Shown one piece after another: positions 6,143 to 20,164 of a DNA stretch of 32,213 nucleotides. Positions within the stretch are counted from its first letter, which is position 1, and each line of letters opens with the position of its first letter. The notes beneath the pieces are model-generated. The model was not told the origin of the DNA. It ran no database searches and was given only the letters and a program-made list of their open reading frames with translations. The DNA comes from Candidatus Thorarchaeota archaeon (GTDB taxonomy: Archaea; Asgardarchaeota; Thorarchaeia; Thorarchaeales; Thorarchaeaceae), in contig JBHLRQ010000018.1 in NCBI GenBank assembly GCA_048882385.1, positions 9,614 to 41,826 of the forward strand. The letters are read 5' to 3'. The position numbers were made by a program, and so were the translations under genes.

Positions 6143-7139
6143 TCTTGTAGGCAAGACTACAGCAAACATCCAAAAAGATGGGTTCTAAATCCATTGTTCT
6201 TGCTAAATCAACACCTTCTTGGCTGATTAGTGCGACCCCATTTGTACCACTCTTGAGTGCAAACTTATCCGTGTCAATCTTGTGTCGACCCATGGGACGA
6301 GCACACCCAAGAAGTATGGGAATTTCTGGCATTCCGAGCCTAGCAATGGTCAAGATACGACCGATGTCTTCAGGGAGAGGTGGATTCACGCCCTCCATAG
6401 CAGTCCTACGAATTGGACTCAGGGCTATAATGACCACAGCAGCTGGTGATCCACGCGCTATCATATCCAGCGCTTCAAGCTCCCCGCCAAGCCTACCATA
6501 GTTCAAACCAACAAGAACGTGTGGAACAGTGGGGATATTTAATGACTCCAAGATATCCAGAGAACGACGCATCTTTTCGGGGCCATTTTTGATGTGATAC
6601 ACATCTTGTGAAACTTGTTCATCTCCAATAATGTCAAGCATTGCTGCATCAATCTGTGCATCAGCAAGAGCCTTGGCAGTCTGTTCATTCACAAGACCAG
6701 TATGAACAACGACTTCAAGATTCAGTTCAGACTTAATTTGCCCAATTACATTCCCAAATCGCTCAAGAGGAACATGTCCTTCTGAGTCAGAGCCACCGCT
6801 GATTAAAACACCTTCTCCCCCATGGCTCTTGATCTGACTACAGCGATCAAAGAGCGTTTCTGGAGTAACTGTGGATTCCATTCCCTTCAAGAGGTGACCA
6901 TCACAATGTTCGCAGTTCAATGAGCATGATGTACCTGTCACACTCAGTGATACAAAATTGTGTGGACCAATCTGTTTGTGATCTTTGATTCTATACGGAT
7001 ATGCAGTTGGACTATAGCAGAAGAGTTTGTTTCCAAAGGTTTTCAGACGCGTGCTCAAACCTCTTCTCATCCATTCCTCTAGCTGACTAGATGATGCCTG
7101 TAAGACCGAATTCCCATCTGGGATGATTTCAAAGCTCAC
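6132..7139 (-). CDS. lipS1: Radical SAM protein, archaeal lipoyl synthase LipS1-like
   Basis: CSLNCEHC (CxxxCxxC), LISGG, plus LGCARP (GC(M/A)R) and C-terminal CC, the motifs described for Thermococcus LipS1. Confidence 0.75.
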   Translation of the reverse strand: MSFEIIPDGNSVLQASSSQLEEWMRRGLSTRLKTFGNKLFCYSPTAYPYRIKDHKQIGPHNFVSLSVTGTSCSLNCEHCDGHLLKGMESTVTPETLFDRCSQIKSHGGEGVLISGGSDSEGHVPLERFGNVIGQIKSELNLEVVVHTGLVNEQTAKALADAQIDAAMLDIIGDEQVSQDVYHIKNGPEKMRRSLDILESLNIPTVPHVLVGLNYGRLGGELEALDMIARGSPAAVVIIALSPIRRTAMEGVNPPLPEDIGRILTIARLGMPEIPILLGCARPMGRHKIDTDKFALKSGTNGVALISQEGVDLARTMDLEPIFLDVCCSLAYKTMK

Positions 7140-7262: not shown

Positions 7263-8702
7263 TTGTCCTCAATAAAGACTGAATCAATAGACCTGTTCTT
7301 TGATGCTAAGAGCGTTGCAATATATGGAGCTTCTACGAGTCAGAACAGTGTTGGTCAGGCAATAGTCCAGAACTTCATCAAACCTCAATATACTGGAAAG
7401 GTCTATGGTGTCAATCCAAAATATGACCAAGTTCTAGGAATTCCTTGTTACCCGACCCTACAAGATATCGATGGCCCAGTGGACTTGGTTGTCGTTGCTG
7501 TTCCAGCCAGAATCACACCCCGAGTGTTTGAGGACATTGCAGCGAAGGGCTCAAAGGCAGTTATCGTGATATCTGGTGGATTCTCAGAAACTGGGCCCAA
7601 GGGAGCTGAGATAGAAGATGAGATTGTGGAGATAGCTAAGAAGCACAATATACGCATTATCGGTCCAAACTGTGTTGGTGTAGTAGATACGAACAGCCAT
7701 ATTGACACCTTCTTCTTGCCAGAGTATCGATGTGGACGACCTAAACCCAGTAATGTAGCAAATATCTCGTTGGTTTCTCAGTCGGGAGCATTTGCAGCAG
7801 CAATATCAGATTGGACCGCAGAGCTTGGTTTGGGTATTAGCAAGCTCATTAGTCTTGGAAACAAGAGTGATGTTGATGACGATGACCTCCTATGCTATCT
7901 CGGAGAGGATTCAACAACACAGGTCATCTGTTACTACACAGAAGGCTATGATGGATCAAAAGGACGGACCTTCTTCGATACCGCACGAACAGTGACTCCG
8001 AACAAGCCAGTTCTAGTGGTGAAGTCTGGAAGAGGGCAGAGAGCACGAGCCGCATCTATGTCACATACAGGGTCTCTTGCGGGCTCTGACAATATTGTCA
8101 ATGCAGCCTACAGACAAGCGGGAATAATCAGACCAGACAACTTCGAGCAGATGTTTGACATGGCCAAAGCGCTAGCCATGCAGCCTCCAGCAAAAGGCGA
8201 CAGAGTCCTTATGATAACCAACGGAGGAGGGCTCGGGGTCATGACGACTGATGCTCTTGAAGCCCTTGGGCTAAACATTCCTTGTCCCTCACCTGAACTT
8301 GAACAGAGATTCAATGAGATTCTGCCTGCATACTGTGCAGTCGGAAATCCAATCGATGTCGTTGGAGACGCAGGCTCAAGTAGATATGATGTTGTATTAG
8401 AAGAGGCTATCGTCAGTGGTGAATACGACATCTTTGTCATTGGAATGCTGCTGCAGACCCCGAGTCTCGATATGGATGTGACTAATGTTATTGCGAATCA
8501 TCAGCGAGCTTCTGGACTTCCATTTGTGGTTGTATCAATGGGTGGGGGATTCACAACTAAAGCAGGTGAAATCATGGCCTTGATGGGAGTACCAACGTAT
8601 GCAACTGGAGAGAAGGCAGCTCTTGCAGTAAAAGCACTTGCTCAGTATGGTGAAATTAAGTACGGCAGAGCATTCAACAAGACACTGTCGTCTGACAAAT
8701 GA
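7263..8702 (+). CDS. acdA: ADP-forming acyl/acetyl-CoA synthetase, alpha subunit
   Basis: SVAIYGAS, ISGGFSE, IIGPNCVG, VSQSGA, SHTGSLAG (phospho-His), TNGGGLG and NPIDVVGD. Confidence 0.93.
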   Translation: MSSIKTESIDLFFDAKSVAIYGASTSQNSVGQAIVQNFIKPQYTGKVYGVNPKYDQVLGIPCYPTLQDIDGPVDLVVVAVPARITPRVFEDIAAKGSKAVIVISGGFSETGPKGAEIEDEIVEIAKKHNIRIIGPNCVGVVDTNSHIDTFFLPEYRCGRPKPSNVANISLVSQSGAFAAAISDWTAELGLGISKLISLGNKSDVDDDDLLCYLGEDSTTQVICYYTEGYDGSKGRTFFDTARTVTPNKPVLVVKSGRGQRARAASMSHTGSLAGSDNIVNAAYRQAGIIRPDNFEQMFDMAKALAMQPPAKGDRVLMITNGGGLGVMTTDALEALGLNIPCPSPELEQRFNEILPAYCAVGNPIDVVGDAGSSRYDVVLEEAIVSGEYDIFVIGMLLQTPSLDMDVTNVIANHQRASGLPFVVVSMGGGFTTKAGEIMALMGVPTYATGEKAALAVKALAQYGEIKYGRAFNKTLSSDK

Positions 8703-8751: not shown

Positions 8752-9492
8752 ATGAAAGAAGCTAAAAAGATCTTCAAAAATGCCCTTGATGAGGGTAGAA
8801 CCTTCGTCTTGGAACATGAAGCTAAGGACATAATGAAATCATATGGTATTCCAATCCCAGCATATGCAACAGCAGCTACAGCTGACGAGGCGGTTGCAAA
8901 ATCGAAAGAGATTGGCTTTCCCGTTGTTCTCAAAATACTCTCTAAAGACATCCTACACAAATCAGATGCTGGTGGAGTCAAAATCAATCTCAAGGACGAG
9001 GATTCTGTTCGCAAGGCATTCGATGAGATTATGGTCAATGCGAGAAATTACGGAAAAGAGAAGGGTATAGAAGTTGATCTTAGCCGAGGTGTGTTCATCT
9101 CTGACTTTGCAGAACTGGGTACGGAGATCATTGTTGGAGTAACAAAAGACCCTCAGTTTGGTCATGCTCTGATGGCAGGACTGGGAGGCATATTTGTTGA
9201 GGTCCTCAAGGACGTGTCCTTCAGGTTGATTCCTTTCACAGAAACAGATGCGAGAGAAATGCTGAGTGAGCTCAAGGCGTACAAAATACTCGAAGGTGTT
9301 CGTGGAGAACCACCTCGAGATGTTGATTCCTTAGTCAAAGTCATGTTAGCAATTTCCAAAATGATTGAAGATAATCCTGAGATTACAGAATTGGATTGTA
9401 ATCCCACTTTTGTGTATGAAAAAGGAAAGGGCTCACTGGTTGTAGATGCCAGGATATTGATTGGCAGTTCTGATTCAGACACTAGTCACTGA
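8752..9492 (+). CDS. acdB: ADP-forming acyl/acetyl-CoA synthetase, beta subunit (ATP-grasp)
   Basis: GFPVVLK, ILHKSDAGGV, DPQFG, GLGGIFVEVLKDV, ELDCNP and VDARI. Confidence 0.93.
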   Translation: MKEAKKIFKNALDEGRTFVLEHEAKDIMKSYGIPIPAYATAATADEAVAKSKEIGFPVVLKILSKDILHKSDAGGVKINLKDEDSVRKAFDEIMVNARNYGKEKGIEVDLSRGVFISDFAELGTEIIVGVTKDPQFGHALMAGLGGIFVEVLKDVSFRLIPFTETDAREMLSELKAYKILEGVRGEPPRDVDSLVKVMLAISKMIEDNPEITELDCNPTFVYEKGKGSLVVDARILIGSSDSDTSH

Positions 9493-10678
9493 TCAAATAA
9501 TTGAGAAGAATTACTCCTCTCTTTAGGTCAAGATCTGTGAGTGGGGAGTCAGATGAGACTTTTGCCTTACTCGCCAATAGAAGTAATAGAGCCACTAGTC
9601 TGGGGACTAAGCGAGCATATTGCAGTAGGAAATCTTTGTTACCAGTAGAGTCTACGACAAGACCTTCTAATCTCCTTGTCAGAAGCTGAATTCTTTCTTC
9701 AACACCTTCTGCTGGTCTAAGACCCTGAAATATCTCGACCGCAGCTGATTCATCCTGAAGAAACTCGGAAGAGATACCTACCTTTTCAAACATTTCAAGT
9801 GCACCAACAATTGTAGAATCATAATGTTCCGCTTCAAGTCGATTGAGTCCTTTCCTTACTGCTTGAATCTGTCCTAACAGACGTAGTGAATTTGTTAGTA
9901 GTGTACGAGATGCGCCTGATGTCGAGGATGCCATTTCTGCTAAATGTTCTTCGTGAACTTTCTCAAGATTTGCAGCTAATGATGAATTGAGTTTTCGATC
10001 AAAGCCAGGAGAAAATCCAACACTGGCTGCTTGAGGGAGCAGCGTATGAGTTCCGAGTCTACGAATCGCAGTAAGCGTTGTAAAGTCTTCAAGAGGGACA
10101 TAGAAGAGGAGAATACGAACAATGTCGTATCCGGTTTCGAAATCAGCCTCTGTCGTAACATTTCTACCTTGTGCCTTACATGAGAAAGCGCTTAGTAAAA
10201 CCCAAGATGATAGGATATCTTCACGAAGCTCCTTTCGCAATCTTGGAGTAGCAAGCTCATGTTCTTCAAGAAAACGAGACAGCTTATCTGCTGCAACGCT
10301 TGCTCTCTGAAGACTTGGTCCACTGAGTTGTAAATCTGCAATTGATTTGATGAATTCCCTTGGTTCGCGTGATGGGGGACGGAGGACAAATCCAGGGTCA
10401 TTTCTTGACATCTGCCACCATTTTGAAGATGAGGTAAAGTAATCTAGAACGTCAATTGCCACTGTAACATCAGAAAGTGTGGCAACCTCTCTTCCGTCAA
10501 GATATCCTACAAGTCGAGTAAACAGTCTGATAAAACGCGTAAGGTGCACTGAAATCTTCTCTTCCACAAATTGACTGTCAGTGAATCTCGAAACCACCGT
10601 TTCAATCTGAGTTGGTATAGATTTCTCTAGACCAGTGCGTAGTAATCCACTGTAGACATCTACGGGAGTCCTAGACAA
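9482..10678 (-). CDS. Hypothetical all-alpha protein with four tandem AAA+ lid-like repeats
   Basis: 398 aa. Four roughly 100-aa units end in GREVATLSD, GRNVTTEAD, GLNRLEAEH and SPLTDLD; no Walker A motif. The CDS is confident; the fold call is inference. Confidence 0.6.
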   Translation of the reverse strand: MSRTPVDVYSGLLRTGLEKSIPTQIETVVSRFTDSQFVEEKISVHLTRFIRLFTRLVGYLDGREVATLSDVTVAIDVLDYFTSSSKWWQMSRNDPGFVLRPPSREPREFIKSIADLQLSGPSLQRASVAADKLSRFLEEHELATPRLRKELREDILSSWVLLSAFSCKAQGRNVTTEADFETGYDIVRILLFYVPLEDFTTLTAIRRLGTHTLLPQAASVGFSPGFDRKLNSSLAANLEKVHEEHLAEMASSTSGASRTLLTNSLRLLGQIQAVRKGLNRLEAEHYDSTIVGALEMFEKVGISSEFLQDESAAVEIFQGLRPAEGVEERIQLLTRRLEGLVVDSTGNKDFLLQYARLVPRLVALLLLLASKAKVSSDSPLTDLDLKRGVILLNYLISD

Positions 10679-10750: not shown

Positions 10751-11527
10751 CTACTTCCCAAACCTTCGAGATCGTTCACCATAGGAACGCAACGCACGCC
10801 ATATATCGATACGTCTCACAGCAGGCCAGTAAATCTGTGCGAAATAGAGCTCTGAATAGGCTGATTGCCATAAAAGAAAACCTGAGAGGCGTTCCTCGCC
10901 AGAGGTCCGAATTATGAGATCAGGATCTGGTACACCATCTGTGTAAAGATGGCCTTCAATTATATCTTCATCAATTTGAGATGGCGCCATCTCACCAGAT
11001 GCAATTTTCTCACCAATCGCCTTCACAGCATCAACAAGTTCAGCTCGACCTGAATAGCCAATGGCTACATTGAGGATATGTTCATTATAATCACGGGTTT
11101 CCTCTTCTGCGGCCCTTATTGCTTGTTGTACTTTTTCAGGTAGAAGGTCCACTCTACCAATTGCTCTGATTCTCACTCTATGGCGATGAACATCAGGATT
11201 ACCAACAACCTCTGAAAATTTCTCTTCTGCAAGTGTCATTATTTGCTCTATTTCAGCTTTCTTTCTTTGAAAATTCTCGATCGAGAAAGCGTACAGAGTG
11301 CAGACTTTGACATTGGCCTCCCATAGGATTCGTAGAACCTCCATGACCTTTGCAGCGCCTTTTTGATGTCCAAACCAAGGAACTTCAAGTCCGTGTTTTC
11401 GTGCATAGCGGCGGTTTCCATCTAGAATGATACCAACATGTCTAGGTGCCCAGTCCTTGTCTAACTGACGGTACAAGTAGTATTCATATAATCTGTACAC
11501 AGGGCCGGATAAGTTCAATTCTAACAC
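10751..11527 (-). CDS. uppS: Cis-prenyltransferase (polyprenyl/undecaprenyl diphosphate synthase)
   Basis: PRHVGIILDGNRRYA, YAFSIENF, PDLIIRTSGEERLSGFLLWQSAYSE and C-terminal RRFG. Confidence 0.96.
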   Translation of the reverse strand: MLELNLSGPVYRLYEYYLYRQLDKDWAPRHVGIILDGNRRYARKHGLEVPWFGHQKGAAKVMEVLRILWEANVKVCTLYAFSIENFQRKKAEIEQIMTLAEEKFSEVVGNPDVHRHRVRIRAIGRVDLLPEKVQQAIRAAEEETRDYNEHILNVAIGYSGRAELVDAVKAIGEKIASGEMAPSQIDEDIIEGHLYTDGVPDPDLIIRTSGEERLSGFLLWQSAYSELYFAQIYWPAVRRIDIWRALRSYGERSRRFGK

Positions 11528-11591: not shown

Positions 11592-11963
11592 CTAAATCAT
11601 TCCTGCAACTTTTTCAGCAGCTCGTTTCATGTCGAGGAAGATAAGGCCCAGTTTTGCATTGGCAGTCGTAGAAACTGTGAGACATGCATTCATTCCCGCC
11701 TGAACAACTAGCAACCATCCATCTACACCCTTGATGTTGACCTGTTCTAGATTTCCTTTTCCAAGTTCTATTGCAGCCTTTTCACCAAGGGTCAGCATTG
11801 CAGCAGTCATTGCTGCTACTTTTGCCTCATCAACATCTGTTGGCAAAGCTGATACGATTGGAAGTCCTTCAACACTGACTATTGCACATGCCTCAATTTC
11901 TGGAATGCTTCCCTGCAGCTCATTTAGAACGCCTTCAAGTGTATTTTCGCGGGATTCTCCCAT
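11592..11963 (-). CDS. Roadblock/LC7 (MglB-like) protein
   Basis: IVSVEGLPIVS, VAAMTAAML and AKLGLIFLDMK. ATG 11963 follows AGGTGAGG; the gene is directly downstream of the GTPase. Confidence 0.92.
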   Translation of the reverse strand: MGESRENTLEGVLNELQGSIPEIEACAIVSVEGLPIVSALPTDVDEAKVAAMTAAMLTLGEKAAIELGKGNLEQVNIKGVDGWLLVVQAGMNACLTVSTTANAKLGLIFLDMKRAAEKVAGMI

Positions 11964-11978
11964 TGGCCTCACCTGTAT

Positions 11979-12551
11979 TTACTTGTACATCCTTTTCAAA
12001 ATGACTTCTCTAGCTATTGCTTGAAATGCCCTCTTAACTCCTACGCCTTGTACAGCAATGGTTTCATAGATGGGGACATTTCCACCTAGACCGAGTAGAT
12101 CGAGCATCTCATCACGTGACATTCTGTTGGGGAGGTCTCGCTTGTTGAGCATGACCACAATTGGAATCTCACGACCCAGAGCATCTCCAAGAAACAGCTT
12201 CAATTCTTCAAAACTCTCAGTGTTCTCATCACGCTGATCTGGTGATGAGTCTGCAACAAAGAGAATTCCATCAGTACCCTGTAGAACTACTTTCCTCTGA
12301 TGCCTGTGTCTCTTCTGTCCAGCCACTGTAAAGACATCAAACAGAACTCGCCCACCAGCACTCATAGGCACATAGTCAAAAAACAGTGTACGATTTGTTT
12401 CATCCTCTATCGCAGTGAACTCACCTTTCTGTAGCCCTTCTACTTTGCCGTATAGCCAACGGAGTGCGGTTGTTTTACCACCTAGGGACGGGCCATAGAA
12501 TACTAGCTTGAGATGAATGCGTCCCTTGTCGTCTTTTCGAATTGTAAACAC
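11979..12551 (-). CDS. MglA-family small GTPase
   Basis: KLVFYGPSLGGKTT (G1), ETNRTLFFD (switch I with intrinsic Arg), FTVAGQ (G3), NKRDL (G4) and TIAVQG (G5). Confidence 0.92.
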   Translation of the reverse strand: MFTIRKDDKGRIHLKLVFYGPSLGGKTTALRWLYGKVEGLQKGEFTAIEDETNRTLFFDYVPMSAGGRVLFDVFTVAGQKRHRHQRKVVLQGTDGILFVADSSPDQRDENTESFEELKLFLGDALGREIPIVVMLNKRDLPNRMSRDEMLDLLGLGGNVPIYETIAVQGVGVKRAFQAIAREVILKRMYK

Positions 12552-12821
12552 CTCATTGTGTCACTGCAGAGGTCCCTGTATTGGGAGTTGATTGAGTAAA
12601 AGTTCAGTCTAATAAAAGCCTTTGTGGCACGGGAGGGTCATTCTGGACGCCTCTCTTTATAGATTGAACTCTTCATCTCAATATGCACTGACTGACAGCT
12701 CTGCCAGATGCAATACAACTGTGTGTGTTATGTTTGGCTTGCAAATACTGAGTTCAGCGTCATGAAGAAGCCAAAGCATTATCTACCAGCGGAGAGAGAG
12801 TATACAGAGGGAGATCACTTG

Positions 12822-13151
12822 ATGGATAATCAGGAACACAAAACCTGCCCATCGTGCGGCAAAGGGATGGAGAAGGGATATCTCATCAGTAAAATGGGAG
12901 TATATTGGGATACCCATGTCCCAAGATTCATTGCACCAGGAACTCTCTTGTCACCAAATACAACAGAGGTGTTCAAGATGCATTATATTCCATCGCACAG
13001 GTGTCAATCCTGCAAAATCATTCAATATGGTGAACCATCTGACCTTGTTCATCTTGCATGTCCTCATTGTGAAGCTAAATACCAATACGAGGTGACTAAG
13101 GAATCGAAACAGTTTGTCTGTCAGAACTGCAATAAAACCTTCACCAAATGA
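12822..13151 (+). CDS. Double zinc-ribbon protein (DUF6487/PF20097-like N-terminal part)
   Basis: CPSCGKGMEKGYL...RCQSCKII, followed by CPHC...CQNC. Start reassigned from 12708 to ATG 12822, which follows GAGGGAG. Confidence 0.7.
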   Translation: MDNQEHKTCPSCGKGMEKGYLISKMGVYWDTHVPRFIAPGTLLSPNTTEVFKMHYIPSHRCQSCKIIQYGEPSDLVHLACPHCEAKYQYEVTKESKQFVCQNCNKTFTK

Positions 13152-13226
13152 ATGGCATGTGTTTGTTCTCTAGAACTAACACTCACTAAAGTGCTAATCT
13201 ACCAGATGTAAATACAACTACTGAAC

Positions 13227-13691
13227 TCAAACTCGTTCAAGTTCGGCCAGAGCTGACTTGAGATCCTCCTCGTCCAGCTCACTCTCTTTGGGAGATAGTG
13301 GCTCTACTGCAAGGAACTTGTCAAGCTCATCTGCAAGTTGTACGCCCTGCTTCTTCATCACAAGCCGGATCAGACCAATGTTTACCTCTGCTTCTGAAAC
13401 AACACAGAGTACACCTTTCCCACAGGCTGAGGCGAAGATTTTGCCCTCCGAGAACTCAGAAGTGACTATCTCAAGCTCCCCAATCTGCAGGTTTTTGCCC
13501 TGCTCCTCACTTGCGCAGAAGACCGCACTGGCTATAGCTCCGATTGAATCTACGTCGACAGGATAGTAGCTCAGTTTACTTACGTTGGCTATTGTAAGAC
13601 CGGTCTTGTCTACAAGGATTACCTTCTTGATGCCCTTATCTTGTCTGATTATCTCGGTCAATATCTTGTCGAAGGCTTTTGGATCACTCAC
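13227..13691 (-). CDS. Roadblock/LC7 protein with acidic C-terminal extension
   Basis: ILVDKTGLTIA, IGAIASAVF and VNIGLIRLVMK; tail ELDEEDLKSALAELERV; GAGGTG RBS. Confidence 0.9.
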   Translation of the reverse strand: MSDPKAFDKILTEIIRQDKGIKKVILVDKTGLTIANVSKLSYYPVDVDSIGAIASAVFCASEEQGKNLQIGELEIVTSEFSEGKIFASACGKGVLCVVSEAEVNIGLIRLVMKKQGVQLADELDKFLAVEPLSPKESELDEEDLKSALAELERV

Positions 13692-13709
13692 TTCCAGTAC
13701 ACCTCATTC

Positions 13710-14009
13710 TCATTCATTATTCTTGAGGACAACCAATATGAGGCCCTCGCTCACTTCCGGTGCGATGTTTATCTGACCCTTTGTGGTATCAAGAGTCAGG
13801 AATGACAGTGACCCCTCTCGAAGTTCACGCACTGCGTCTAGTGCCTTTCCTACGAGGGAGGTGATAATTGCAGCGACATTCTCTGTGGTATCAGGGTCCA
13901 GATCACTACTAAGCGGAAGACCCTCCATATTTGTTACAACAACTCCACGGACGCCTTCCTGTGACTTCAGTTTTGAAAGAATCCCTTGAAGTTTTTCTTG
14001 GCTAATCAA
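13710..14009 (-). CDS. Short roadblock/LC7 (DYNLRB-like) protein
   Basis: KLKSQEGVRGVVVTNMEGLPLSS...LSFLTLDTTKGQINIAP...LILVV. Start reassigned from 14168 to TTG 14009, which follows GGGGA; 99 aa. Confidence 0.88.
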   Translation of the reverse strand: MISQEKLQGILSKLKSQEGVRGVVVTNMEGLPLSSDLDPDTTENVAAIITSLVGKALDAVRELREGSLSFLTLDTTKGQINIAPEVSEGLILVVLKNNE

Positions 14010-14144
14010 CGTACAGTATCCCCGCTGCGTCAACTGTTCATTAACATCTACGCCGCAGTTGACTATTTTAGACTTGTGGAGATATGTTACCACTCCACAC
14101 GCACCAATTGCGCATTCGGTGAATATTTGGGGTTGTGTTACATC

Positions 14145-14184
14145 AAAAAATGGGTGCGGCCGTGTCAAGGAGTAGACACGACCG
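14145..14184 (-). terminator. Hairpin plus U6 tract downstream of the Sec23/24-like gene
   Basis: Minus strand CGGTCGTGTC-8 nt-GACACGGCCG (10 bp with one G-U), then TTTTTT, about 20 nt after the stop codon. Confidence 0.55.
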
Positions 14185-14203
14185 ATTAATGAAACATTAA
14201 GAG

Positions 14204-15826
14204 CTATTCTTCTTCTTCGTCATCAAAGAGTTTCTTCGAGCTTCTTTTCATCTGAGCCAGACTGCCAGTAAACGCTTTGTCTGCAGCTCCTGAGGGAGCT
14301 GCTGCGGGAGCTTCCGCAAGCATCTCCTCCTGACGGGCAATCTCCTCTTCTTCGTTGTTCAAAACATTGTCAGTCTTGTCAAGCATTGCTTGAACAGCTT
14401 TCGGAGCATCCTTTGCTTTGGTCTTCAGAGCCTTCCTAAATGATGCTATTCTCTTTCGACCCTTCTCTCTGTCACCCCTGAATGACTCTTCACCGGCTTT
14501 CTGAGTCACAAAAGTGGCACCAACCGTTGGATCGAGTGTTTCCATGATTTCTTCTTCATTCTTGGAAACTCTGAGTTTGGTAGTCACTGCGCGCACCCTT
14601 CGAGCGCCTTCTTCGTCAGTATATGTGACTTGAACCTGAATAGGAACCTCGCTTTCCTTGATCTCTTTCTCGGGCTCAACCTCGAAGTAGAGCTCGTGAT
14701 CTTCTCCAACGACTCCGATCTTACTCTCGCTCTTCTTCTTGAGTTGGTCAACTACAGCTCGAGAAACTCCTGAAGCATCCTTGACCTTCACGCCTGGAGG
14801 TGTTACAAGACGAACTTCAACATCTCTTCCGAGAAGTGAAGCTCCTGCAAGTTCCGAGAGACTTCTGTCAAGCTCGTTTGGAGTGACATAATACATCTGC
14901 CCTCCTGTAGCCTCAGGCAAAAGTCCAAGTGTCTGAAGCTCCATACCTGCTCCTGATGCAATACCAACAACATCTACAGCTGTACCTAACTCCATGAACA
15001 TCTTTCCTAGGTCCTCATAGTACTTACTTGCCGGAGTGACCTGATATCCTTCAAGGGCGCCAATTCCTTCATTTGCCAGCCCATCAGTAAGAAGAACTAC
15101 TCTTCCAACATTTCGATGTTTGGCAATTACAAAAGCCATGCCCACTGCAGGACCAAGCGCTGTTCCGCCTTGGTCACGGAGCGCCTGTACATGTTTCTTC
15201 AGCTTGTCCTGATTCTTACCAACTCCTATCAACTTGACATCATCGAGGAGTTTCTTTGTTGCATTCATGATATCATTGAGACTTGCGAAGGAGTTTCTTG
15301 GAAGTTCGACGGGGTTTCCATTTTCGAGATTACGAGCCACAACCGAGCTCTCAAACTCTATCAGACCGAACATTGTATCCGGTGCATTTGCTGCAAGACT
15401 ATCAATAGATGTGTTTAGACTGCGTTTTACTGCTGCTAAGTTTGCTCCAGCCATAGATCCTGATACATCAATGAGCCCTAAGAAGGACTTTCCACCCACA
15501 GCAATTGTTTCAGTAGCAGTTTCTGGATCAGGTGGTCCTTCTATAACAAAATCGGTATCATCACCAGCAACAACTACTTCACCCTCTATGATATTTAGAG
15601 TTCCACAAAACGGACACACAAAGTGCTTGCCCACCTTTGGATCCTCTTGGATTTGGTCTACACTAAGAAGGAAACCATTACACTTGTGGCATGCAATTGG
15701 TTTTCCTACAATCTTTGTTGTTTCATGCGCTAGATGACCAAATTCTACACGCAAAACGTAAGGAATGTCGCTCAGTACTTTCTTGGATGCTGGAAAAGAT
15801 TCTGAGCTAGTTCTCAACATAGGCAA
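14204..15826 (-). CDS. Sec23/Sec24-like protein (Zn finger, vWA trunk, beta-sandwich, helical tail)
   Basis: PIACHKCNGFL...FVCPFCGTLN (zf-Sec23/24 pattern); LIDVSGSM, GGTALGPA and LLTDGLANEGIGAL (vWA); IQVQVTYTDEEGARRVRAVT (Sec23/24 beta-sandwich). Confidence 0.82.
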   Translation of the reverse strand: MPMLRTSSESFPASKKVLSDIPYVLRVEFGHLAHETTKIVGKPIACHKCNGFLLSVDQIQEDPKVGKHFVCPFCGTLNIIEGEVVVAGDDTDFVIEGPPDPETATETIAVGGKSFLGLIDVSGSMAGANLAAVKRSLNTSIDSLAANAPDTMFGLIEFESSVVARNLENGNPVELPRNSFASLNDIMNATKKLLDDVKLIGVGKNQDKLKKHVQALRDQGGTALGPAVGMAFVIAKHRNVGRVVLLTDGLANEGIGALEGYQVTPASKYYEDLGKMFMELGTAVDVVGIASGAGMELQTLGLLPEATGGQMYYVTPNELDRSLSELAGASLLGRDVEVRLVTPPGVKVKDASGVSRAVVDQLKKKSESKIGVVGEDHELYFEVEPEKEIKESEVPIQVQVTYTDEEGARRVRAVTTKLRVSKNEEEIMETLDPTVGATFVTQKAGEESFRGDREKGRKRIASFRKALKTKAKDAPKAVQAMLDKTDNVLNNEEEEIARQEEMLAEAPAAAPSGAADKAFTGSLAQMKRSSKKLFDDEEEE

Positions 15827-16008
15827 TTAATATCCGTCTCCAAAATTTATTGGCTGACTTTTACGTGAGCGGTTTTAAGTGAATCGACGAAGAATACTGG
15901 AGACCTATTCTAAAAAATGGAATACCAGACCGACGCGTAAGATATTTACGGGCAATGGGTTAGAACTGAGGATAGTCTAATCAGACCTCTCGGGAGGATA
16001 ACTCACAA

Positions 16009-16374
16009 ATGGTGGATCAAGCAAAGATAGAACAAGTTGTACAGGAAACAATGGCTGCTAATGCAGATCTGGAAGGCATTGTAATCTGCGATGCTAAAGG
16101 CAATGTGCTCTTTGGCCACACTATTAGTGGTGGCACCAAACACTCAGATGTCGCAAATCTTTCCGTTAAGATAGCTGCTAATTCCTCCCAACTTTCTGCA
16201 GGTCTAGACAAGGGCGGCCTAAAGGAAGTCAGTATTGCATCAGATAACGGTTTCATTATCATCCTCGGAGATGTGAAAATAGTACTGGCTGGAATAGCAG
16301 GGGAAGGCGCACGAGAATCACTGGGTCTTCTTAGAATGGCTCTACGACGAGCACTATTATCGATAATCAAGTAA
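16009..16374 (+). CDS. Roadblock/LC7 protein, divergent from the Sec23/24-like gene
   Basis: LEGIVICDAKGNVL, GGLKEVSI and SLGLLRMALRR; GGAGG RBS. Confidence 0.82.
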   Translation: MVDQAKIEQVVQETMAANADLEGIVICDAKGNVLFGHTISGGTKHSDVANLSVKIAANSSQLSAGLDKGGLKEVSIASDNGFIIILGDVKIVLAGIAGEGARESLGLLRMALRRALLSIIK

Positions 16375-16573: not shown

Positions 16574-19500
16574 TTGGTTCACATTGAGAAGCTTGTATGC
16601 AAGGGCTTCAAATCGTTTGGAAGAGAATCAGTCAGTATCAAGCTAAATCCGGGATTCACTTGTATTGTGGGACCAAATGGTTCAGGTAAGTCAAATGTTG
16701 TCGATGCTATTCTTTTCGTACTGGGACAACTCAGTGCTAAAACTCTAAGGGCTACAGTCTTCTCAGATCTGCTATACTCACCTCCTAAACCAAACATGCC
16801 GCCAAAAGCAAAATCAGCAATTGTTGAGCTTCATTTCGATAACAAGGATCGTGCGCTACAAATTGATGCTGATCGTGTTGTAATTGAAAGAGAGTTAGAT
16901 GACACTGGAAAATCAGTATGTCGAATAAATGGAAAAGTCGTCACGCGGACTGCAGTTCTTGATGTATTGGGCGCTATTGGAGTGGATCCGAATGGCTACA
17001 ATCTCGTTCTGCAAGGAGAAATTGCACAGATGGTCAAAGTAAGTCCAACAGAACGAAGAAAATTAATTGAAGAAATTGCAGGTATTTCAGCTTACGATGA
17101 ACAGAAAGAGCGCGCACTGAAGAAGCTCCAAGAGAGTGAAGGAAACCTTGGAAAAGTGGAAATGCAGCTCCAAGAACGACGTCGCCAGTTAGAGAAACTT
17201 GAGGAAGATATGTCTGATGCACGTCGATATCAGAATCTAAATGGTCAGATAAGAAAGCTCAGAATCGATATTCTTGCATGGAGTACGATCAAAGGAAAAT
17301 CAAGAATTGATACAATCAACGAAACACTTGCTCTAAGAGCAGAAGAAGCTGAGAGCTTGGTCAAGGAATTCGTTGAGGTGGAGAACGGAATTGTTACCAC
17401 TGAGACTGAGATTGAAAGAATAGATCACGATATTGATGAAATAACTGGAGGAGACTCGACGCGGGTATCTGAACAATATGGTATAGTATCTGCAGCAGTG
17501 AGTCATGTAAAAGCCGATCTTGAAAGAGCACAATCAGAGTTTGATAGAGCATCAGGCGAACGGAGAACTATCAATGAGGAATTAGAAACAACCCAAGACG
17601 AGATTAGTCACTACGAGCAAATGTTGAAAGAAAAGAATAGTGAACTTACCGATCTTGAGAAAGAGATTGCTAGTACAACAGCTGAGATAATACGGTTGGA
17701 GGATATGTCTGAGAAAGCTCAAGCCGCTTACTATGAAACTACGCTACGACTGCAGGACCTGAATAATCAGATGCGTCATCTCGACGAAGGAGTTTCTGAA
17801 ATCAGGTCAACAATAAAATCAGATAACAGAGAACTAGGACTAGCATATGAAGAAGTGCGAGATGCTACGGAAAGCCTTCAGACTGCTGAGAATGAGCTTG
17901 CAGAATTGAATGAGAGCATTCCTGAAAAGAGATCCGAGTTGGAACAGTCTATTGAAATTGAAAAGAGCAAGCAGGTCGAAATTACCAGTTTGACAAAGCA
18001 ACTGTCAACGGTAGATGCAGAGGTTGCAGAGAGCTCAAAGATTGTTGCACAGACAAGAGAAGAGCTCATCAAGGTGCAGGCACGTCAAGATGCTCTAAAG
18101 GAGGCTGAAGATGCGTTTCTTAAGAGACGCCAAGCAATAGCTATGGTTTTGAAACTCAGGGATGCAAATGTGATCAGCGGAATTCATGGCACTGTTGCAG
18201 AACTTGGAACCATTGACCCGGACTATTCAGTGGCATTAGAGATTGCAGGAGGAAACAGACTTTCTTACATTGTCGTTGAAAATGAACAGATTGCGACTGA
18301 ATGTGTGGAGATTTTGAAGAAAGAACAAATTGGAAGAGCCTCATTTATCCCTCTTGATAAGATAAAGACGAGTCCACCAGGAAAGCTGCCAAAGGATGAA
18401 GGCGTCATAGATTTTGCATTGAACTTGGTCAAGTTTGAACCAAAGATGAAACCAGCATTTGAATTCGTATTCTCTGACACGATTGTGACCGAAGATTTTG
18501 ATACAGCGAAGCGCCAAGGATTTCGTGGACAGAGAGCTGTATCTCTTGAGGGAGACCTAGTCGAACGGTCAGGCCTAATGACAGGGGGGTTCTTTCAAAA
18601 GGCTGCAGCTGGACTATCACTCCAGGTTGAAGACACTAGCCCTCAGATTGTAGAACGTCTTCAAGGTCTTGAAGAAATACTTACAGACCTGCAAGAAAAA
18701 CAGACATCCCTTCGTAAAGAAAGAAGCGAACTTGAGAAGGAAGTTCAAGGTCTAGAAAAGACAAATTATCGTCTTCAGATGGAATTGAACAGACTCATTG
18801 AACGTCTTGAAGAACAGGAATCAAGATCAGAGATTCTTAGAGATAGAATTGCTAAGGCTAACCTTACGATTAGTGAACTGGAGGACCAGGTAAAAGAACT
18901 TCAAGAGAGGGATGACGAACTCAGCATCCAACGTGAGAGAGTTCGAGCACAGCGGGATGATGCAAATCAGGCTCTGGTATCATCAGATGCGAACAAAATC
19001 AATCAAGAAATCAAAGATCTGAAAGAAGTCCAAGATCAGTACCAGAAGAACAGAGAGAAACTACAGAGTGAAATTACTTCAGTACGAGTGGCTCTGGATG
19101 AAAGACTTGGACCAAAAGCGATTGATTTGGAAACTAAGATTCAATCCCAAGACGCAATAATCCCAGGACTTGAAGAAGAGCTGAAACGATTACAGATGGG
19201 GCTCTCTGAGAGAGAGGAGGAGTTTGAAAAACTCAAAGAAGAGAGAGAACGCATAGATGATGCGGTAAAGGACAAGCGTGTTCGCCAATTCGAATTGAAA
19301 GAGGATCTCCGTAATCTTAGATTGAGACATGAGGAGATTCGAGAAGCGCAGACTTCCAATGAAAAAGCTGTCTACAGACTTCAGACCGAGCAAAATAGAC
19401 TGGAAAATGATGTTGTTGCATACGAAGCTGAGTTGAAAACTGTTGCAGATGTTCAAACGGCTCTTGAAGATAGAGCAGAGGAACGTGAACTCACATACAA

Positions 19501-20164
19501 AGAGATTGAAGAATTGGAAGAGAAAATCAAAGAGATAGAACGTGAGCTCGAAGCCATGGGTCCAGTCAATCTCAAGTCACTCACAGATTACGATATTGAG
19601 AAGGACAAATACGAAGAGATTGTTGACAAGAAGACTAGACTAGAGAATGAACGCAATGAGATTCTTGCATTCATGGAGGAGTTAGAGGCGGAGAAGACTC
19701 AGAAATTCTTGACCGTCTACAATGAGATTGCTGATAACTTCTCTAAAGTATTCGCAAAACTCTCTCCAGATGGAGAAGCAAACCTGATGCTTGAAAATCC
19801 AGAGCACCCTTTGATGGGTGGCATAACAGTCAGATCCAAGCCAAGAGGGAAAGAGCTAGTCACATTGGATGCAATGAGCGGTGGGGAAAAGACTCTAACT
19901 GGTCTTGCACTCATCTTTGCAATCCAGATGTACAGCCCAGCAAGCTTCTACATCTTTGATGAAATTGATGCTGCTCTTGACAACGTAAATGCTCACAATG
20001 TTGCTCTACTTATTTCAGAGATGTCAAAGAACTCACAATTTGTGGTTGTTTCACTTAGAGATACAACTGTTCGAAAAGCTGATTTATTGGTGGGAGTATC
20101 TAACCAAGATGGCATCTCAAGGATTGTTGCAGTCGATTTGGAGGAGGTCGCAGCATCGTCATGA
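16574..20164 (+). CDS. smc: Chromosome segregation protein SMC
   Basis: GFKSF, Walker A GPNGSGKS, VLQG Q-loop, coiled coils, hinge (GTVAEL...GRASFIPL), MSGGEK signature and FDEIDAALD. Confidence 0.98.
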   Translation: MVHIEKLVCKGFKSFGRESVSIKLNPGFTCIVGPNGSGKSNVVDAILFVLGQLSAKTLRATVFSDLLYSPPKPNMPPKAKSAIVELHFDNKDRALQIDADRVVIERELDDTGKSVCRINGKVVTRTAVLDVLGAIGVDPNGYNLVLQGEIAQMVKVSPTERRKLIEEIAGISAYDEQKERALKKLQESEGNLGKVEMQLQERRRQLEKLEEDMSDARRYQNLNGQIRKLRIDILAWSTIKGKSRIDTINETLALRAEEAESLVKEFVEVENGIVTTETEIERIDHDIDEITGGDSTRVSEQYGIVSAAVSHVKADLERAQSEFDRASGERRTINEELETTQDEISHYEQMLKEKNSELTDLEKEIASTTAEIIRLEDMSEKAQAAYYETTLRLQDLNNQMRHLDEGVSEIRSTIKSDNRELGLAYEEVRDATESLQTAENELAELNESIPEKRSELEQSIEIEKSKQVEITSLTKQLSTVDAEVAESSKIVAQTREELIKVQARQDALKEAEDAFLKRRQAIAMVLKLRDANVISGIHGTVAELGTIDPDYSVALEIAGGNRLSYIVVENEQIATECVEILKKEQIGRASFIPLDKIKTSPPGKLPKDEGVIDFALNLVKFEPKMKPAFEFVFSDTIVTEDFDTAKRQGFRGQRAVSLEGDLVERSGLMTGGFFQKAAAGLSLQVEDTSPQIVERLQGLEEILTDLQEKQTSLRKERSELEKEVQGLEKTNYRLQMELNRLIERLEEQESRSEILRDRIAKANLTISELEDQVKELQERDDELSIQRERVRAQRDDANQALVSSDANKINQEIKDLKEVQDQYQKNREKLQSEITSVRVALDERLGPKAIDLETKIQSQDAIIPGLEEELKRLQMGLSEREEEFEKLKEERERIDDAVKDKRVRQFELKEDLRNLRLRHEEIREAQTSNEKAVYRLQTEQNRLENDVVAYEAELKTVADVQTALEDRAEERELTYKEIEELEEKIKEIERELEAMGPVNLKSLTDYDIEKDKYEEIVDKKTRLENERNEILAFMEELEAEKTQKFLTVYNEIADNFSKVFAKLSPDGEANLMLENPEHPLMGGITVRSKPRGKELVTLDAMSGGEKTLTGLALIFAIQMYSPASFYIFDEIDAALDNVNAHNVALLISEMSKNSQFVVVSLRDTTVRKADLLVGVSNQDGISRIVAVDLEEVAASS

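What the first reader, a model, noticed from the sequence alone, without database searches (positions are those of the whole stretch)
11592..16374. Sec23/24-like gene clustered with an MglA-type GTPase and four roadblock proteins: candidate proto-coat/GTPase switch module
Seen: within 4.8 kb lie a Sec23/24-like gene, three co-oriented roadblock genes, a small GTPase and a fourth, divergent roadblock gene. Known: in eukaryotes Sec23/24 is the effector and GAP of Sar1 (COPII), roadblock dimers form Ragulator/Rag scaffolds, and bacterial MglB roadblocks are GAPs for MglA. Sec23/24 homologues and roadblocks have each been reported in Asgard archaea. Inference: the genes act as one system in which an MglA-type GTPase, rather than a Sar/Arf, is regulated by roadblock heterodimers and uses the Sec23/24-like protein as effector. 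The parts fit together: the GTPase carries its own Arg finger (RTLFFD), while the Sec23/24-like protein lacks the gelsolin domain that supplies the Arg finger in Sec23.
Basis: partly seen in the sequence, partly recalled or inferred. Interest (0 to 1): 0.85.

Follow-up and report, generated by a model that had tools for sequence, protein, structure and literature searches.

The report
Thor Sec23-like gene beside MglA-roadblock cluster
A Thorarchaeota genome places a relative of the eukaryotic COPII coat proteins Sec23/24 next to an old switch module made of one MglA-type GTPase and four roadblock proteins, but the coat-like gene joined this neighbourhood only in one archaeal family and nothing yet shows that the two work together.

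Summary
Within 4.8 kb lie a Sec23/24-like gene, four Roadblock/LC7 genes and one GTPase that is clearly MglA-type.

The 'one system' reading is only partly supported.
- The GTPase with the four roadblocks is an old module. RblC-RblB-GTPase-RblA recurs in 12 of 32 GTPase-centred loci from 9 Asgard families, and none of the 32 holds a Sec23-like gene.
- The Sec23-like gene is an orthologous Asgard family, found in 148 of 400 genomes. It lies beside the GTPase in 60 of 75 genomes of the window's own family, Thorarchaeota by record titles, and in 0 of 28 genomes of other families.
- One family member keeps the module but carries the Sec23-like gene elsewhere. Another has a 1.6-kb deletion of it.
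- In this family Sec23L, RblC-RblB and GTPase-RblA each have their own promoter-like element.

My reading: an MglA/MglB-like switch with several roadblock platforms, and a Sec23-like gene that is a lineage-specific neighbour.

This scan reached the same reading earlier on other genomes. Interest is moderate.

The parts
11592..11972 (-). RblA. A roadblock/LC7 protein of 126 aa, 6 nt downstream of the GTPase gene.
   Evidence: Pfam Robl_LC7 2.9e-16. The closest solved chain is 7f8m, a Robl_LC7 protein, at 1e-23. An orthologue follows the GTPase gene in 12 loci of 9 families.
11979..12551 (-). MglA-type small GTPase, 190 aa.
   Evidence: Solved MglA chains match at 3e-38, Arf at 6.5e-12. The P-loop, R54-T55, T75, G78-Q79 and NKxD are invariant in 38 of 38 orthologues. 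It is found in 370 of 400 Asgard genomes at E<=1e-25.
12607..12627 (-). Promoter-like element CCACAAAGGCTTTTAT(TAGAC) upstream of the GTPase gene (inferred BRE/TATA).
   Evidence: Present, with up to 3 mismatches, upstream of the GTPase in 19 of 22 loci of the window's family and in 0 of 16 loci of other families. Sequence read.
12708..13151 (+). Double zinc-ribbon gene (DUF6487). It is a lineage-specific insert in the variable spacer and not part of the module.
   Evidence: Pfam DUF6487 7.1e-9. Among the fetched loci it was found only in the window and in L208. The spacer it sits in varies from 144 to 3925 nt within the family.
13227..13691 (-). RblB. A long roadblock protein of 154 aa with an acidic C-terminal extension; the most MglB-like of the four.
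   Evidence: Robl_LC7 1.4e-9 and MAPKK1_Int 1.5e-7. The best solved matches are MglB at 2.9e-4 and LAMTOR2 at 4e-3. NCBIfam's MglB model gives a weak hit, 22 bits against a cutoff of 200.
13710..14009 (-). RblC. A short roadblock of about 99 aa, LC7/LAMTOR5-like, with a TTG start. The ORF as listed runs to 14168.
   Evidence: Robl_LC7 2e-16 and LAMTOR5 2.1e-7. Solved chain 7f8f matches at 3e-25 and dynein light chain roadblock at 4e-14. Orthologues are 96-99 aa.
14061..14079 (-). Promoter-like element CCACAAGTCTAAAATA(GTC) upstream of RblC (inferred BRE/TATA).
   Evidence: Present in 22 of 23 loci of the window's family, among them the two that lack Sec23L at this place (L110, L207), and in 0 of 16 loci of other families.
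14204..15826 (-). Sec23/24-like protein, 540 aa: zinc ribbon, vWA-type trunk with an intact MIDAS motif, beta-sandwich and helical domain. No gelsolin domain.
   Evidence: Pfam trunk and beta-sandwich hits are above cutoff. AlphaFold2 model: pLDDT 87.3, pTM 0.88. Foldseek's top hits are Sec23/24 at E 4e-30. VIA gives Z 29.6 with 492 residues aligned. The Cys4 and DxSxS..T..D residues are invariant in 53 of 53 sequences.
15872..15885 (-). Promoter-like element GATTCACTTAAAAC upstream of Sec23L (inferred). It differs from the RblC and GTPase element.
   Evidence: Present in 10 of 21 loci of the family, 61-99 nt upstream of the anchor.
16009..16374 (+). RblD. A divergently transcribed roadblock of 121 aa.
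   Evidence: LAMTOR5 24.5 and Robl_LC7 19.5 bits, both below cutoff. Solved roadblock chain 9jq8 matches at 1.9e-8. An orthologue lies divergent to RblC in 9 loci outside the window (L095, L097, L099, L102, L105, L106, L108, L110, L201).

Best explanation
Two separate things lie side by side.

(1) An old Asgard module. It is the operon rblC-rblB-mglA-rblA with a divergent rblD, usually between uppS and smc.

(2) The Asgard Sec23/24-like gene. In the ancestor of the window's family it moved into the divergent intergenic region between rblC and rblD. Records of this family are titled Thorarchaeota. The gene is read from its own promoter.

How the module most likely works (inferred by homology, not shown): like MglA/MglB. 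The GTPase supplies its own catalytic Arg54 and Gln79. Roadblock dimers bind over the switch regions and set the rates of GTP hydrolysis and nucleotide exchange. With four old paralogues there is room for two different dimeric platforms, one GAP-like and one GEF-like or scaffold-like.

The Sec23-like protein most likely acts independently, as a zinc-ribbon/vWA adaptor that binds its ligand through its intact MIDAS site (inferred). It is not an obligate part of the switch.
For: Shown here:
- The GTPase belongs to the MglA family, with all catalytic motifs invariant.
- RblC-RblB-GTPase-RblA recurs in 12 of 32 GTPase-centred loci from 9 families. RblD lies divergent in 9 of them. None of the 32 holds a Sec23-like gene within about 7 kb.
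- Sec23L and the GTPase lie on one contig within 10 kb in 60 of 75 genomes of the window's family and in 0 of 28 genomes of other families. In G149 they are 860 kb apart on one contig.
- The Sec23L tree follows the families. The family clade has SH-aLRT support of 100. Its sister is the same-order genome, in which the cluster has no Sec23L. So one relocation explains the data.
- G341 keeps the cluster, with RblC directly facing RblD, and has its Sec23L on another contig.
- G394 is 96% complete. It lacks about 1.6 kb of Sec23L compared with a 94-95% identical congener. Only the last 30 codons remain, and all five module genes are intact.
- Within the family the GTPase is 91-100% identical, against 46-91% for Sec23L.
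- Family-wide promoter-like elements stand in front of RblC (22 of 23 loci) and the GTPase (19 of 22). Sec23L has a different one (10 of 21).
- In other lineages the neighbours of Sec23L are unrelated metabolic and transport genes.
Against: - The adjacency has lasted through the whole diversification of the family, while Sec23L identity fell to 55%. Sec23L is co-oriented with RblC-RblB at a spacer of 135-306 nt, so read-through transcription cannot be excluded.
- In this same family the old four-gene operon is split. The RblB-to-GTPase spacer has a median of 254 nt, against 63.5 nt elsewhere. That leaves RblC-RblB nearer to Sec23L than to the GTPase, which could reflect new coupling.
- Elsewhere Sec23L sometimes lies next to other small GTPases or roadblocks. 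A Ras-family GTPase lies 0.8-1.6 kb upstream in 7 loci of one genus. An Arf/Ras-like GTPase lies 126 nt upstream in L075. A roadblock gene lies directly upstream in L063.
- The G394 deletion comes from a metagenome bin and could be an assembly or population variant.
- The promoter elements are inferred from conservation alone; no transcript data exist.
Confidence: 0.72

Rival explanations
1. After its relocation the Sec23-like protein was recruited as effector or membrane adaptor of the MglA-roadblock switch. The GTPase's own Arg finger would make up for the missing gelsolin domain.
For: - The adjacency is kept in 60 of 75 family genomes, and most of the other 15 are contig breaks.
- Sec23L is co-oriented with RblC-RblB.
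- The operon split in the same family leaves RblC-RblB next to Sec23L.
- The published work found that Asgard Sec23-like proteins did not bind an Asgard Arf in a nucleotide-dependent way, so their GTPase partner, if there is one, is open (PMC11914678, passages).
Against: - No linkage in 0 of 28 genomes of other families that have both genes.
- The module exists without Sec23L in most Asgard genomes: 370 against 148 of 400.
- G341 (relocated) and G394 (deleted) keep an intact module.
- Sec23L has its own promoter-like element, unlike the one shared by RblC and the GTPase.
- The whole block, including uppS and smc, is syntenic in this family, so retention needs no selection.
Confidence: 0.15
2. 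The Sec23-like protein is a general partner of small GTPase/roadblock systems across Asgard archaea. Which GTPase it uses differs by lineage: MglA in Thor, and Ras-like or Arf-like in Loki-type genera. Hence the recurring but changing adjacency.
For: Outside the family, a GTPase or roadblock gene lies within two genes of Sec23L in several lineages.
- Ras-family GTPase, Pfam 3.4e-44, in 7 loci of genus g9.
- Arf/Ras-like GTPase 126 nt upstream in L075.
- Robl_LC7 gene 210 nt upstream in L063.
- A 500-aa roadblock-containing protein near L067.

Against: - Most lineages show nothing of the kind. No roadblock or GTPase was found in the fetched flanks in f2, f12, f21, f25, f27, f32, three of five genera of f9 and four of five loci of f26.
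- The immediate neighbours scanned are beta-lactamase-fold, PhoU-like, MFS, ABC-2, enoyl-CoA hydratase, AsnC, homoserine dehydrogenase and the like.
- Asgard genomes hold tens of small GTPase candidates each: the first look gave 20-70 per genome. Some chance adjacency is therefore expected. I did not compute a formal background.
- The g9 loci are close kin and count as one event.
Confidence: 0.08
3. The Sec23-like protein works like the crenarchaeal ArnA/ArnB pair: a zinc-finger plus vWA/beta-sandwich/helical regulator that switches on phosphorylation. It would have no link to GTPases or membranes.
For: - ArnB chains are strong fold matches: 8s05_A at Z 25.4 with 364 residues aligned, and 5a8j at Z 23.1.
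- The MIDAS residues are invariant.
- PMC12852372 (passages) describes ArnB-like proteins across archaea and notes their Sec23/24-like core.
Against: - Sec23/24 chains match better and over the whole length: Z 29.6, 492-503 residues aligned, including the N-terminal strand and the zinc finger.
- No FHA-domain or kinase gene lies next to it in the window.
- This is compatible with the best explanation rather than opposed to it.
Confidence: 0.05

Closest known systems
MglA-MglB polarity switch of Myxococcus xanthus and Thermus thermophilus
   Same: - The GTPase matches solved MglA at 3e-38.
- It has the switch-I Arg (R54, matching MglA R53), TxxGQ in place of DxxGQ, and the catalytic Gln.
- Roadblock genes lie directly beside it.
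- RblB's best solved matches are MglB, and it has a C-terminal extension.
   Different: - There are four old, distinct roadblock paralogues in place of one MglB, among them a short LC7-type one (RblC) and a divergently transcribed one (RblD).
- The host is archaeal.
- No RomR/RomX or MglC relatives were looked for.
- The function in Asgard cells is unknown.
- An AlphaFold3 model of a Thorarchaeota MglA-MglB-like pair is mentioned in PMC13408092 (passage). Which genes were used is in a supplement that I could not see.
Asgard Sec23-like proteins (PMC11914678, Nat Commun 2025)
   Same: Same family and same architecture: all Sec23 domains except gelsolin, and eukaryotic Sec23/24 as the best structural match.
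   Different: The passages I read contain no neighbourhood analysis: the word 'neighbo' occurs 0 times. The Thor-family position inside the MglA/roadblock cluster and the invariant MIDAS motif are added here. Their supplementary datasets were not visible to me.
Eukaryotic COPII inner coat: Sec23/Sec24 with Sar1
   Same: Zinc finger, trunk, beta-sandwich and helical domains in the same order and arrangement (TM 0.69-0.74, Z 26-30).
   Different: - No gelsolin domain, so no Sec23-type Arg finger.
- One copy per genome, so no Sec23/Sec24 pair of paralogues.
- The neighbouring GTPase is MglA-type, not Sar1/Arf.
- The intact MIDAS motif is kept; from memory, not tested here, eukaryotic trunks have largely lost it.
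Ragulator-Rag (LAMTOR roadblock heterodimers scaffolding Rag GTPases)
   Same: Several distinct roadblock proteins are encoded around one GTPase. RblB hits LAMTOR2 and MP1 (LAMTOR3) models; RblC and RblD hit LAMTOR5.
   Different: - The GTPase has no C-terminal roadblock domain and is not Rag-type.
- No LAMTOR1-like gene was seen.
- The pairing of the four roadblocks is unknown.
ArnA/ArnB archaellum regulators of Sulfolobus
   Same: A vWA, beta-sandwich and helical core (Z 25.4), with a zinc finger in the system.
   Different: Here the zinc ribbon is fused in cis. There is no FHA partner nearby, and the overall match to Sec23/24 is better.

Membership tests
Sec23/Sec24 (COPII inner coat) | N-terminal Cys4 zinc finger | tested here: met
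   C46, C49, C71 and C74 are invariant in 53 of 53 sequences, and the region is inside the alignment to Sec23/24 chains. The Pfam zf-Sec23_Sec24 hit alone is below cutoff, 16.7 against 25 bits.
Sec23/Sec24 (COPII inner coat) | Trunk (vWA-like) and beta-sandwich domains | tested here: met
   PF04811 at 41.4 bits (cutoff 27) and PF08033 at 36.5 bits (cutoff 33.5).
Sec23/Sec24 (COPII inner coat) | Helical domain after the beta-sandwich | tested here: met
   The AlphaFold2 model has confident helices at 433-539. They align to Sec23 up to residue 623-630. There is no Pfam Sec23_helical hit, so the evidence is structural only.
Sec23/Sec24 (COPII inner coat) | C-terminal gelsolin-like domain (carries the Arg finger in Sec23) | tested here: not met
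   The protein ends at residue 540. The alignments stop at Sec23 residue 623-630, in chains of 705-733 residues. PMC11914678 reports the same for all Asgard Sec23-like proteins.
Sec23/Sec24 (COPII inner coat) | Two paralogues that form a heterodimer | tested here: not met
   One match in the window's own genome, which is 95% complete. Most genomes of the family also show one.
Sec23/Sec24 (COPII inner coat) | GTP-dependent binding of a Sar1/Arf-type GTPase | not testable with these tools
   Needs binding assays. PMC11914678 reports weak binding of three Asgard Sec23-like proteins to one Asgard Arf in yeast, insensitive to nucleotide state (passage).
MglA family GTPase | Intrinsic switch-I arginine (MglA R53) and catalytic Gln (Q82) | tested here: met
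   R54 and Q79 align with them and are invariant in 38 of 38 orthologues. The role of R53 is as stated in PMC10933270 (passage).
MglA family GTPase | TxxGQ in place of the Ras DxxGQ motif | tested here: met
   T75-V-A-G78-Q79 aligns with MglA TVPGQ. T75, G78 and Q79 are invariant. That this motif defines MglA is recalled, not taken from a call.
MglA family GTPase | Closer to MglA than to any other small GTPase family | tested here: met
   Four distinct solved MglA sequences match at 3e-38 to 9e-38; the next is Arf4 at 6.5e-12. Pfam has no MglA model and gives Arf at 3.8e-14.
MglA family GTPase | Roadblock (MglB-type) partner gene adjacent | tested here: met
   RblA starts 6 nt after the GTPase stop. 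In other families RblB ends 40-185 nt before the GTPase start.
MglA family GTPase | GTP hydrolysis stimulated by the roadblock partner | not testable with these tools
   Needs enzyme assays.
Roadblock/LC7 | Robl_LC7 domain | tested here: met
   RblA 59.4, RblB 37.9 and RblC 59.9 bits, against a cutoff of 23. For RblD the Pfam result is inconclusive (19.5 bits), but a solved roadblock chain matches at 1.9e-8.
Ragulator-Rag | Rag-type GTPase with a C-terminal roadblock domain | tested here: not met
   The GTPase is 190 aa, a G domain only, and MglA-type.
Ragulator-Rag | Two roadblock heterodimers held by a LAMTOR1-like subunit | not tested
   Four paralogues exist, but their pairing was not modelled and no LAMTOR1 search was made.
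ArnA/ArnB | vWA, beta-sandwich and helical core with a separate ZnF-FHA partner | tested here: not met
   The core fold matches (8s05_A, Z 25.4). But the zinc ribbon is fused in cis, and no FHA gene lies in the neighbourhood.

The most novel reading that the evidence does not exclude
In Thorarchaeota the relocated Sec23-like protein has been captured by the module. The RblB/RblC roadblock pair was uncoupled from the GTPase operon in this same family. It would dock on the Sec23-like protein much as the longin domain of Sec22 docks on Sec23/24. MglA-GTP would then control where this zinc-ribbon/vWA adaptor assembles on the membrane. That would be a GTPase-switched proto-coat built on an MglA rather than an Arf.
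Probability: 0.1. Interest if true: 0.85.

Novelty: new variant of a known kind. Interest (0 to 1): 0.4.

Why it matters
The partner GTPase of the Asgard Sec23-like proteins is an open question. The published work found no nucleotide-dependent binding to an Asgard Arf (PMC11914678). Gene position in Thorarchaeota names a candidate, the MglA-type GTPase and its roadblocks. The comparative evidence here says that position alone is weak support.

The more solid product is a matched set of one GTPase and four roadblock regulators, conserved across at least nine Asgard families. Matching Asgard GTPases to their regulators is otherwise hard (PMC10933270 says so). This set can go straight into biochemical tests of how multi-roadblock GTPase platforms such as Ragulator may have begun.

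Tried and rejected
- **Complex prediction.** Sec23L (alignment A1) with the GTPase (A2), GTP and Mg riding along, gave 'no answer': score 0.02, mark 0.32, controls not run. It is no evidence either way. The single job is spent, so the roadblock pairings and Sec23L with RblB/RblC were not modelled.
- **Expression.** No RNA holder is listed for window:11500-16400. Co-transcription could not be tested, and read laying was not used.
- **Intron lead.** In this window all four roadblock ORFs are whole and cover the local roadblock profile, so none is seen here.
- **Literature.** I searched for the cluster with these term sets:
  - Sec23, Asgard, roadblock and GTPase
  - Sec23, Asgard and MglA
  - Sec23 and Thorarchaeota
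  - Asgard, roadblock, Sec23, Sec24, vWA and longin
  - MglA, MglB and Asgard

  No paper in the library was found that places a Sec23-like gene in an MglA/roadblock cluster. One search was too loose and gave nothing useful.
- **Liu et al.** The 2021 paper is not held under its PMC id. The passages I read of its 2020 preprint name an ESCRT and a LAMTOR1-like/Rab-like/DENN neighbourhood, but not this one. Its supplementary tables were not visible.
- **Single-sequence searches.** Single-sequence phmmer searches for roadblocks around Sec23L in other families found one roadblock gene, in L063. Iterated local profiles added only L067.
- **Enrichment.** I considered whether GTPase or roadblock genes are enriched next to Sec23L across lineages. 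About 4 of 16 lineages show one. I did not compute a background, so I draw no conclusion.

Full report
**Observation**

The region 11592-16374 holds, on the minus strand, RblA (11592-11972), a small GTPase (11979-12551), RblB (13227-13691), RblC (ORF 13710-14168) and a 540-aa Sec23/24-like gene (14204-15826). RblD (16009-16374) is on the plus strand.
- Pfam gives Robl_LC7 above cutoff for RblA, RblB and RblC, and just below for RblD.
- For the large protein it gives Sec23_trunk and Sec23_BS above cutoff, and the Sec23/24 zinc finger below it.
- RblD matches a solved roadblock chain at 1.9e-8.
- RblC orthologues are 96-99 aa, and the alignment of upstream regions puts its start at the TTG at 14009.
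- A profile scan of the whole window finds only these four roadblocks and this one GTPase.

**The GTPase**

- Solved MglA chains match at 3e-38 to 9e-38, and the next family, Arf, at 6.5e-12.
- NRTLFFD aligns with MglA DRTLFFD, whose Arg53 is the intrinsic arginine finger (PMC10933270, passage). TVAGQ aligns with TVPGQ.
- In 38 orthologues the P-loop, R54-T55, T75, G78-Q79 and NKxD are invariant.

**The Sec23-like protein**

- An AlphaFold2 model built on 53 homologues is confident: pLDDT 87.3, pTM 0.88.
- Foldseek's top matches are all Sec23 or Sec24 chains (E 4e-30 down to about 1e-25, TM 0.63-0.74). Bacterial vWA and ArnB follow far below.
- VIA-align gives Z 29.6 with 492-503 residues aligned. 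The alignment covers Sec23 residues 8/13 to 623/630, so it stops where the gelsolin domain would begin. ArnB (8s05_A) reaches Z 25.4 over 364 residues.
- The four zinc-ribbon cysteines and a complete MIDAS signature (D120, S122, S124, T222, D248) are invariant in 53 of 53 sequences.
- The own genome holds one copy.
- The lack of a gelsolin domain in all Asgard Sec23-like proteins, and their failure to bind an Asgard Arf in a nucleotide-dependent way, are already published (PMC11914678, passages).

**Distribution and synteny of the Sec23-like gene**

- It matches in 148 of 400 Asgard genomes (E<=1e-5), and in 78 of 85 genomes of the window's family f1.
- Record titles for the closest relatives read Candidatus Thorarchaeota. 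More distant ones read Hermod-, Frey-, Heimdall-, Odin- or Promethearchaeota.
- I fetched 58 loci around it.
- In 20 of 21 fetched f1 loci, from 15 genera besides the window's own, the order is unk398-UPPS-RblA-GTPase-[variable spacer]-RblB-RblC-Sec23L-<RblD>-SMC. The exception is L038.
- I also fetched 37 loci from 10 other families; two of them are halves of one gene. None has RblB or RblC next to Sec23L. What does lie near it in some:
  - A roadblock gene is adjacent in L063. A 500-aa roadblock-containing protein lies near L067.
  - A Ras-family GTPase lies 0.8-1.6 kb upstream in 7 loci of one genus. An Arf/Ras-like GTPase lies 126 nt upstream in L075.
  - A non-orthologous GTPase lies 4 kb away on the other strand in three loci of f20.
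- Otherwise the neighbours are unrelated transport and metabolic genes.

**Distribution and synteny of the GTPase**

- It matches in 370 of 400 Asgard genomes at E<=1e-25. It is 91-100% identical within f1 and 57-67% in other families.
- I fetched 32 loci centred on the best GTPase hit, from 23 families.
- RblC-RblB-GTPase-RblA is complete in 12 of them, from 9 families (f1, f2, f4, f7, f12, f13, f15, f21, f32).
  - RblD is divergent in 9 of these.
  - UPPS and/or SMC is alongside in most.
- Partial sets occur in f5, f14, f16, f17, f18, f19 and f33. The f33 locus (L113) is cut at a contig end.
- The GTPase stands alone in f3, f9, f20, f24, f26, f27 and f30.
- None of the 32 loci contains a Sec23-like gene.
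- From the coordinates listed:
  - Sec23L and the GTPase lie on one contig within 10 kb in 60 of 75 f1 genomes, 1.7-5.7 kb start to start.
  - They do so in 0 of 28 genomes of other families. In G149 they are 860 kb apart on one contig.
- The 15 f1 exceptions break down as follows:
  - nine have Sec23L at or within about 800 nt of a contig end;
  - one (G355) has the GTPase split over a contig end;
  - four (G019, G352, G357, G385) I could not resolve;
  - one (G341) is a true separation.

**History**

- A quick maximum-likelihood tree of 53 Sec23-like proteins follows the families.
- The f1 sequences form one clade (SH-aLRT 100) that includes the relocated G341 copy.
- Its sister is the copy of the same-order genome G025 (support 97; a long branch, so the placement is less sure).
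- In G025 the cluster is RblA-GTPase-RblB-RblC-<RblD>-SMC with no Sec23L, and its Sec23L lies on another contig.
- The simplest history is one move of an existing Sec23-like gene into the divergent rblC/rblD intergenic region at the base of f1, followed by one move out (G341).
- G394 (f1, 96% complete) gave no Sec23L match.
  - Its cluster aligns at 94-95% DNA identity with that of a congener.
  - The exception is a gap of about 1.6 kb that removes all of Sec23L except its last 30 codons.
  - SMC, RblD, RblC, RblB, GTPase, RblA, UPPS and unk398 are all intact.

**Transcription units (inferred from conservation only)**

- Outside f1, RblB ends 40-185 nt (median 63.5, n=16) before the GTPase start. 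In f1 the spacer is 144-3925 nt (median 254, n=22). In the window it holds the zinc-ribbon gene.
- A 16-nt element, CCACAAGTCTAAAATA, lies 65-101 nt before the RblC anchor in 22 of 23 f1 loci, among them the two without Sec23L at this place.
- A similar element, CCACAAAGGCTTTTAT, lies upstream of the GTPase in 19 of 22 f1 loci.
- Neither occurs in 16 loci of other families.
- Sec23L has a different element, GATTCACTTAAAAC, in 10 of 21 loci.
- The Sec23L-to-RblC spacer is 135-306 nt. In the window it holds a T-run after the stop codon.
- I read this as three units in Thorarchaeota: Sec23L, RblC-RblB and GTPase-RblA. The last two share a promoter type.

**Reading**

The GTPase and its four roadblocks are a real, old module, and the closest known system is MglA/MglB. 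By homology the GTPase brings its own catalytic Arg and Gln, and roadblock dimers act as GAP and/or GEF platforms. Four conserved paralogues suggest two different platforms, which recalls Ragulator. But the GTPase is not Rag-type and has no roadblock domain of its own. All of this is inferred.

The Sec23-like gene is a family-specific neighbour with its own promoter-like element. It is absent from the ancestral cluster, unlinked wherever else both genes exist, and lost or moved in two family members without damage to the module. That does not exclude recruitment in Thorarchaeota, which I put at about 0.15. The operon split in this same family leaves RblC-RblB closest to Sec23L, and that deserves a binding test.

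**Prior work**

- The library searches listed under Tried and rejected found no paper that describes a Sec23-like gene in an MglA/roadblock cluster.
- A Thorarchaeota MglA-MglB-like pair modelled with AlphaFold3 is mentioned in PMC13408092 (passage).
- Thor and Loki roadblock structures and the remark that Asgard GTPases are rarely in operons with roadblocks are in PMC10933270 (passages).
- Earlier agents of this scan reached the same reading on other Thorarchaeota and Asgard genomes. My tests were made independently, before I read those notes.

Noticed in passing
L207 (G394:C34) about 6410-7037, compared with L053 5424-7180: A natural deletion of about 1.6 kb removes the Sec23-like gene in one Thorarchaeota genome and leaves its last 30 codons. 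About 360 nt of unrelated sequence sit at the junction. The congener is 94-95% identical on both sides.
   Followed up: partly
window 12708-13151 (+): A double zinc-ribbon gene (DUF6487 plus a C-terminal CxxC ribbon) is inserted on the opposite strand in the RblB-GTPase spacer. It was seen again only in L208 (G005). Within the family the spacer is a hot spot for inserts of up to 3.9 kb.
   Followed up: partly
window 12607-12627 and 14061-14079 (-): The promoter-like elements of the GTPase and of RblC share a CCACAA(A)G core before an A/T-rich box. This may be a common regulator site special to this family.
   Followed up: partly
window 9482-10678 (-): A 398-aa protein with no Pfam or NCBIfam hit is a constant neighbour of UPPS in the window's family. 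This query did not find it next to the cluster in other families.
   Followed up: no
L099 (G152:C5) 7616-8114 (-): The RblB orthologue is split into two overlapping ORFs (7616-7966 and 7941-8114). This could be a frameshift, a sequencing error or a small intron. An earlier scan note reports a 28-base intron in a roadblock gene of another genome.
   Followed up: no
L071-L074, L078, L089, L090 (one genus of family f9): A Ras-family GTPase (Pfam Ras 3.4e-44 in L072) lies 0.8-1.6 kb upstream of the Sec23-like gene on the same strand, in a block of shared genes. In L075, from another genus, a 223-aa Arf/Ras-like GTPase ends 126 nt before it.
   Followed up: partly
window 10751-11527 and 16574-20164; loci L095, L099, L102, L105, L106, L110: The undecaprenyl-diphosphate-synthase-like gene and SMC flank the GTPase/roadblock cluster in several distant Asgard families. 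Synteny that deep is unusual for housekeeping genes.
   Followed up: no
L178, L185 (bacterial records): Some bacterial vWA proteins (Thermomicrobiales, Clostridia) align to residues 118-477/507 of the Sec23-like protein. That goes beyond the vWA domain into the beta-sandwich and helical part.
   Followed up: no
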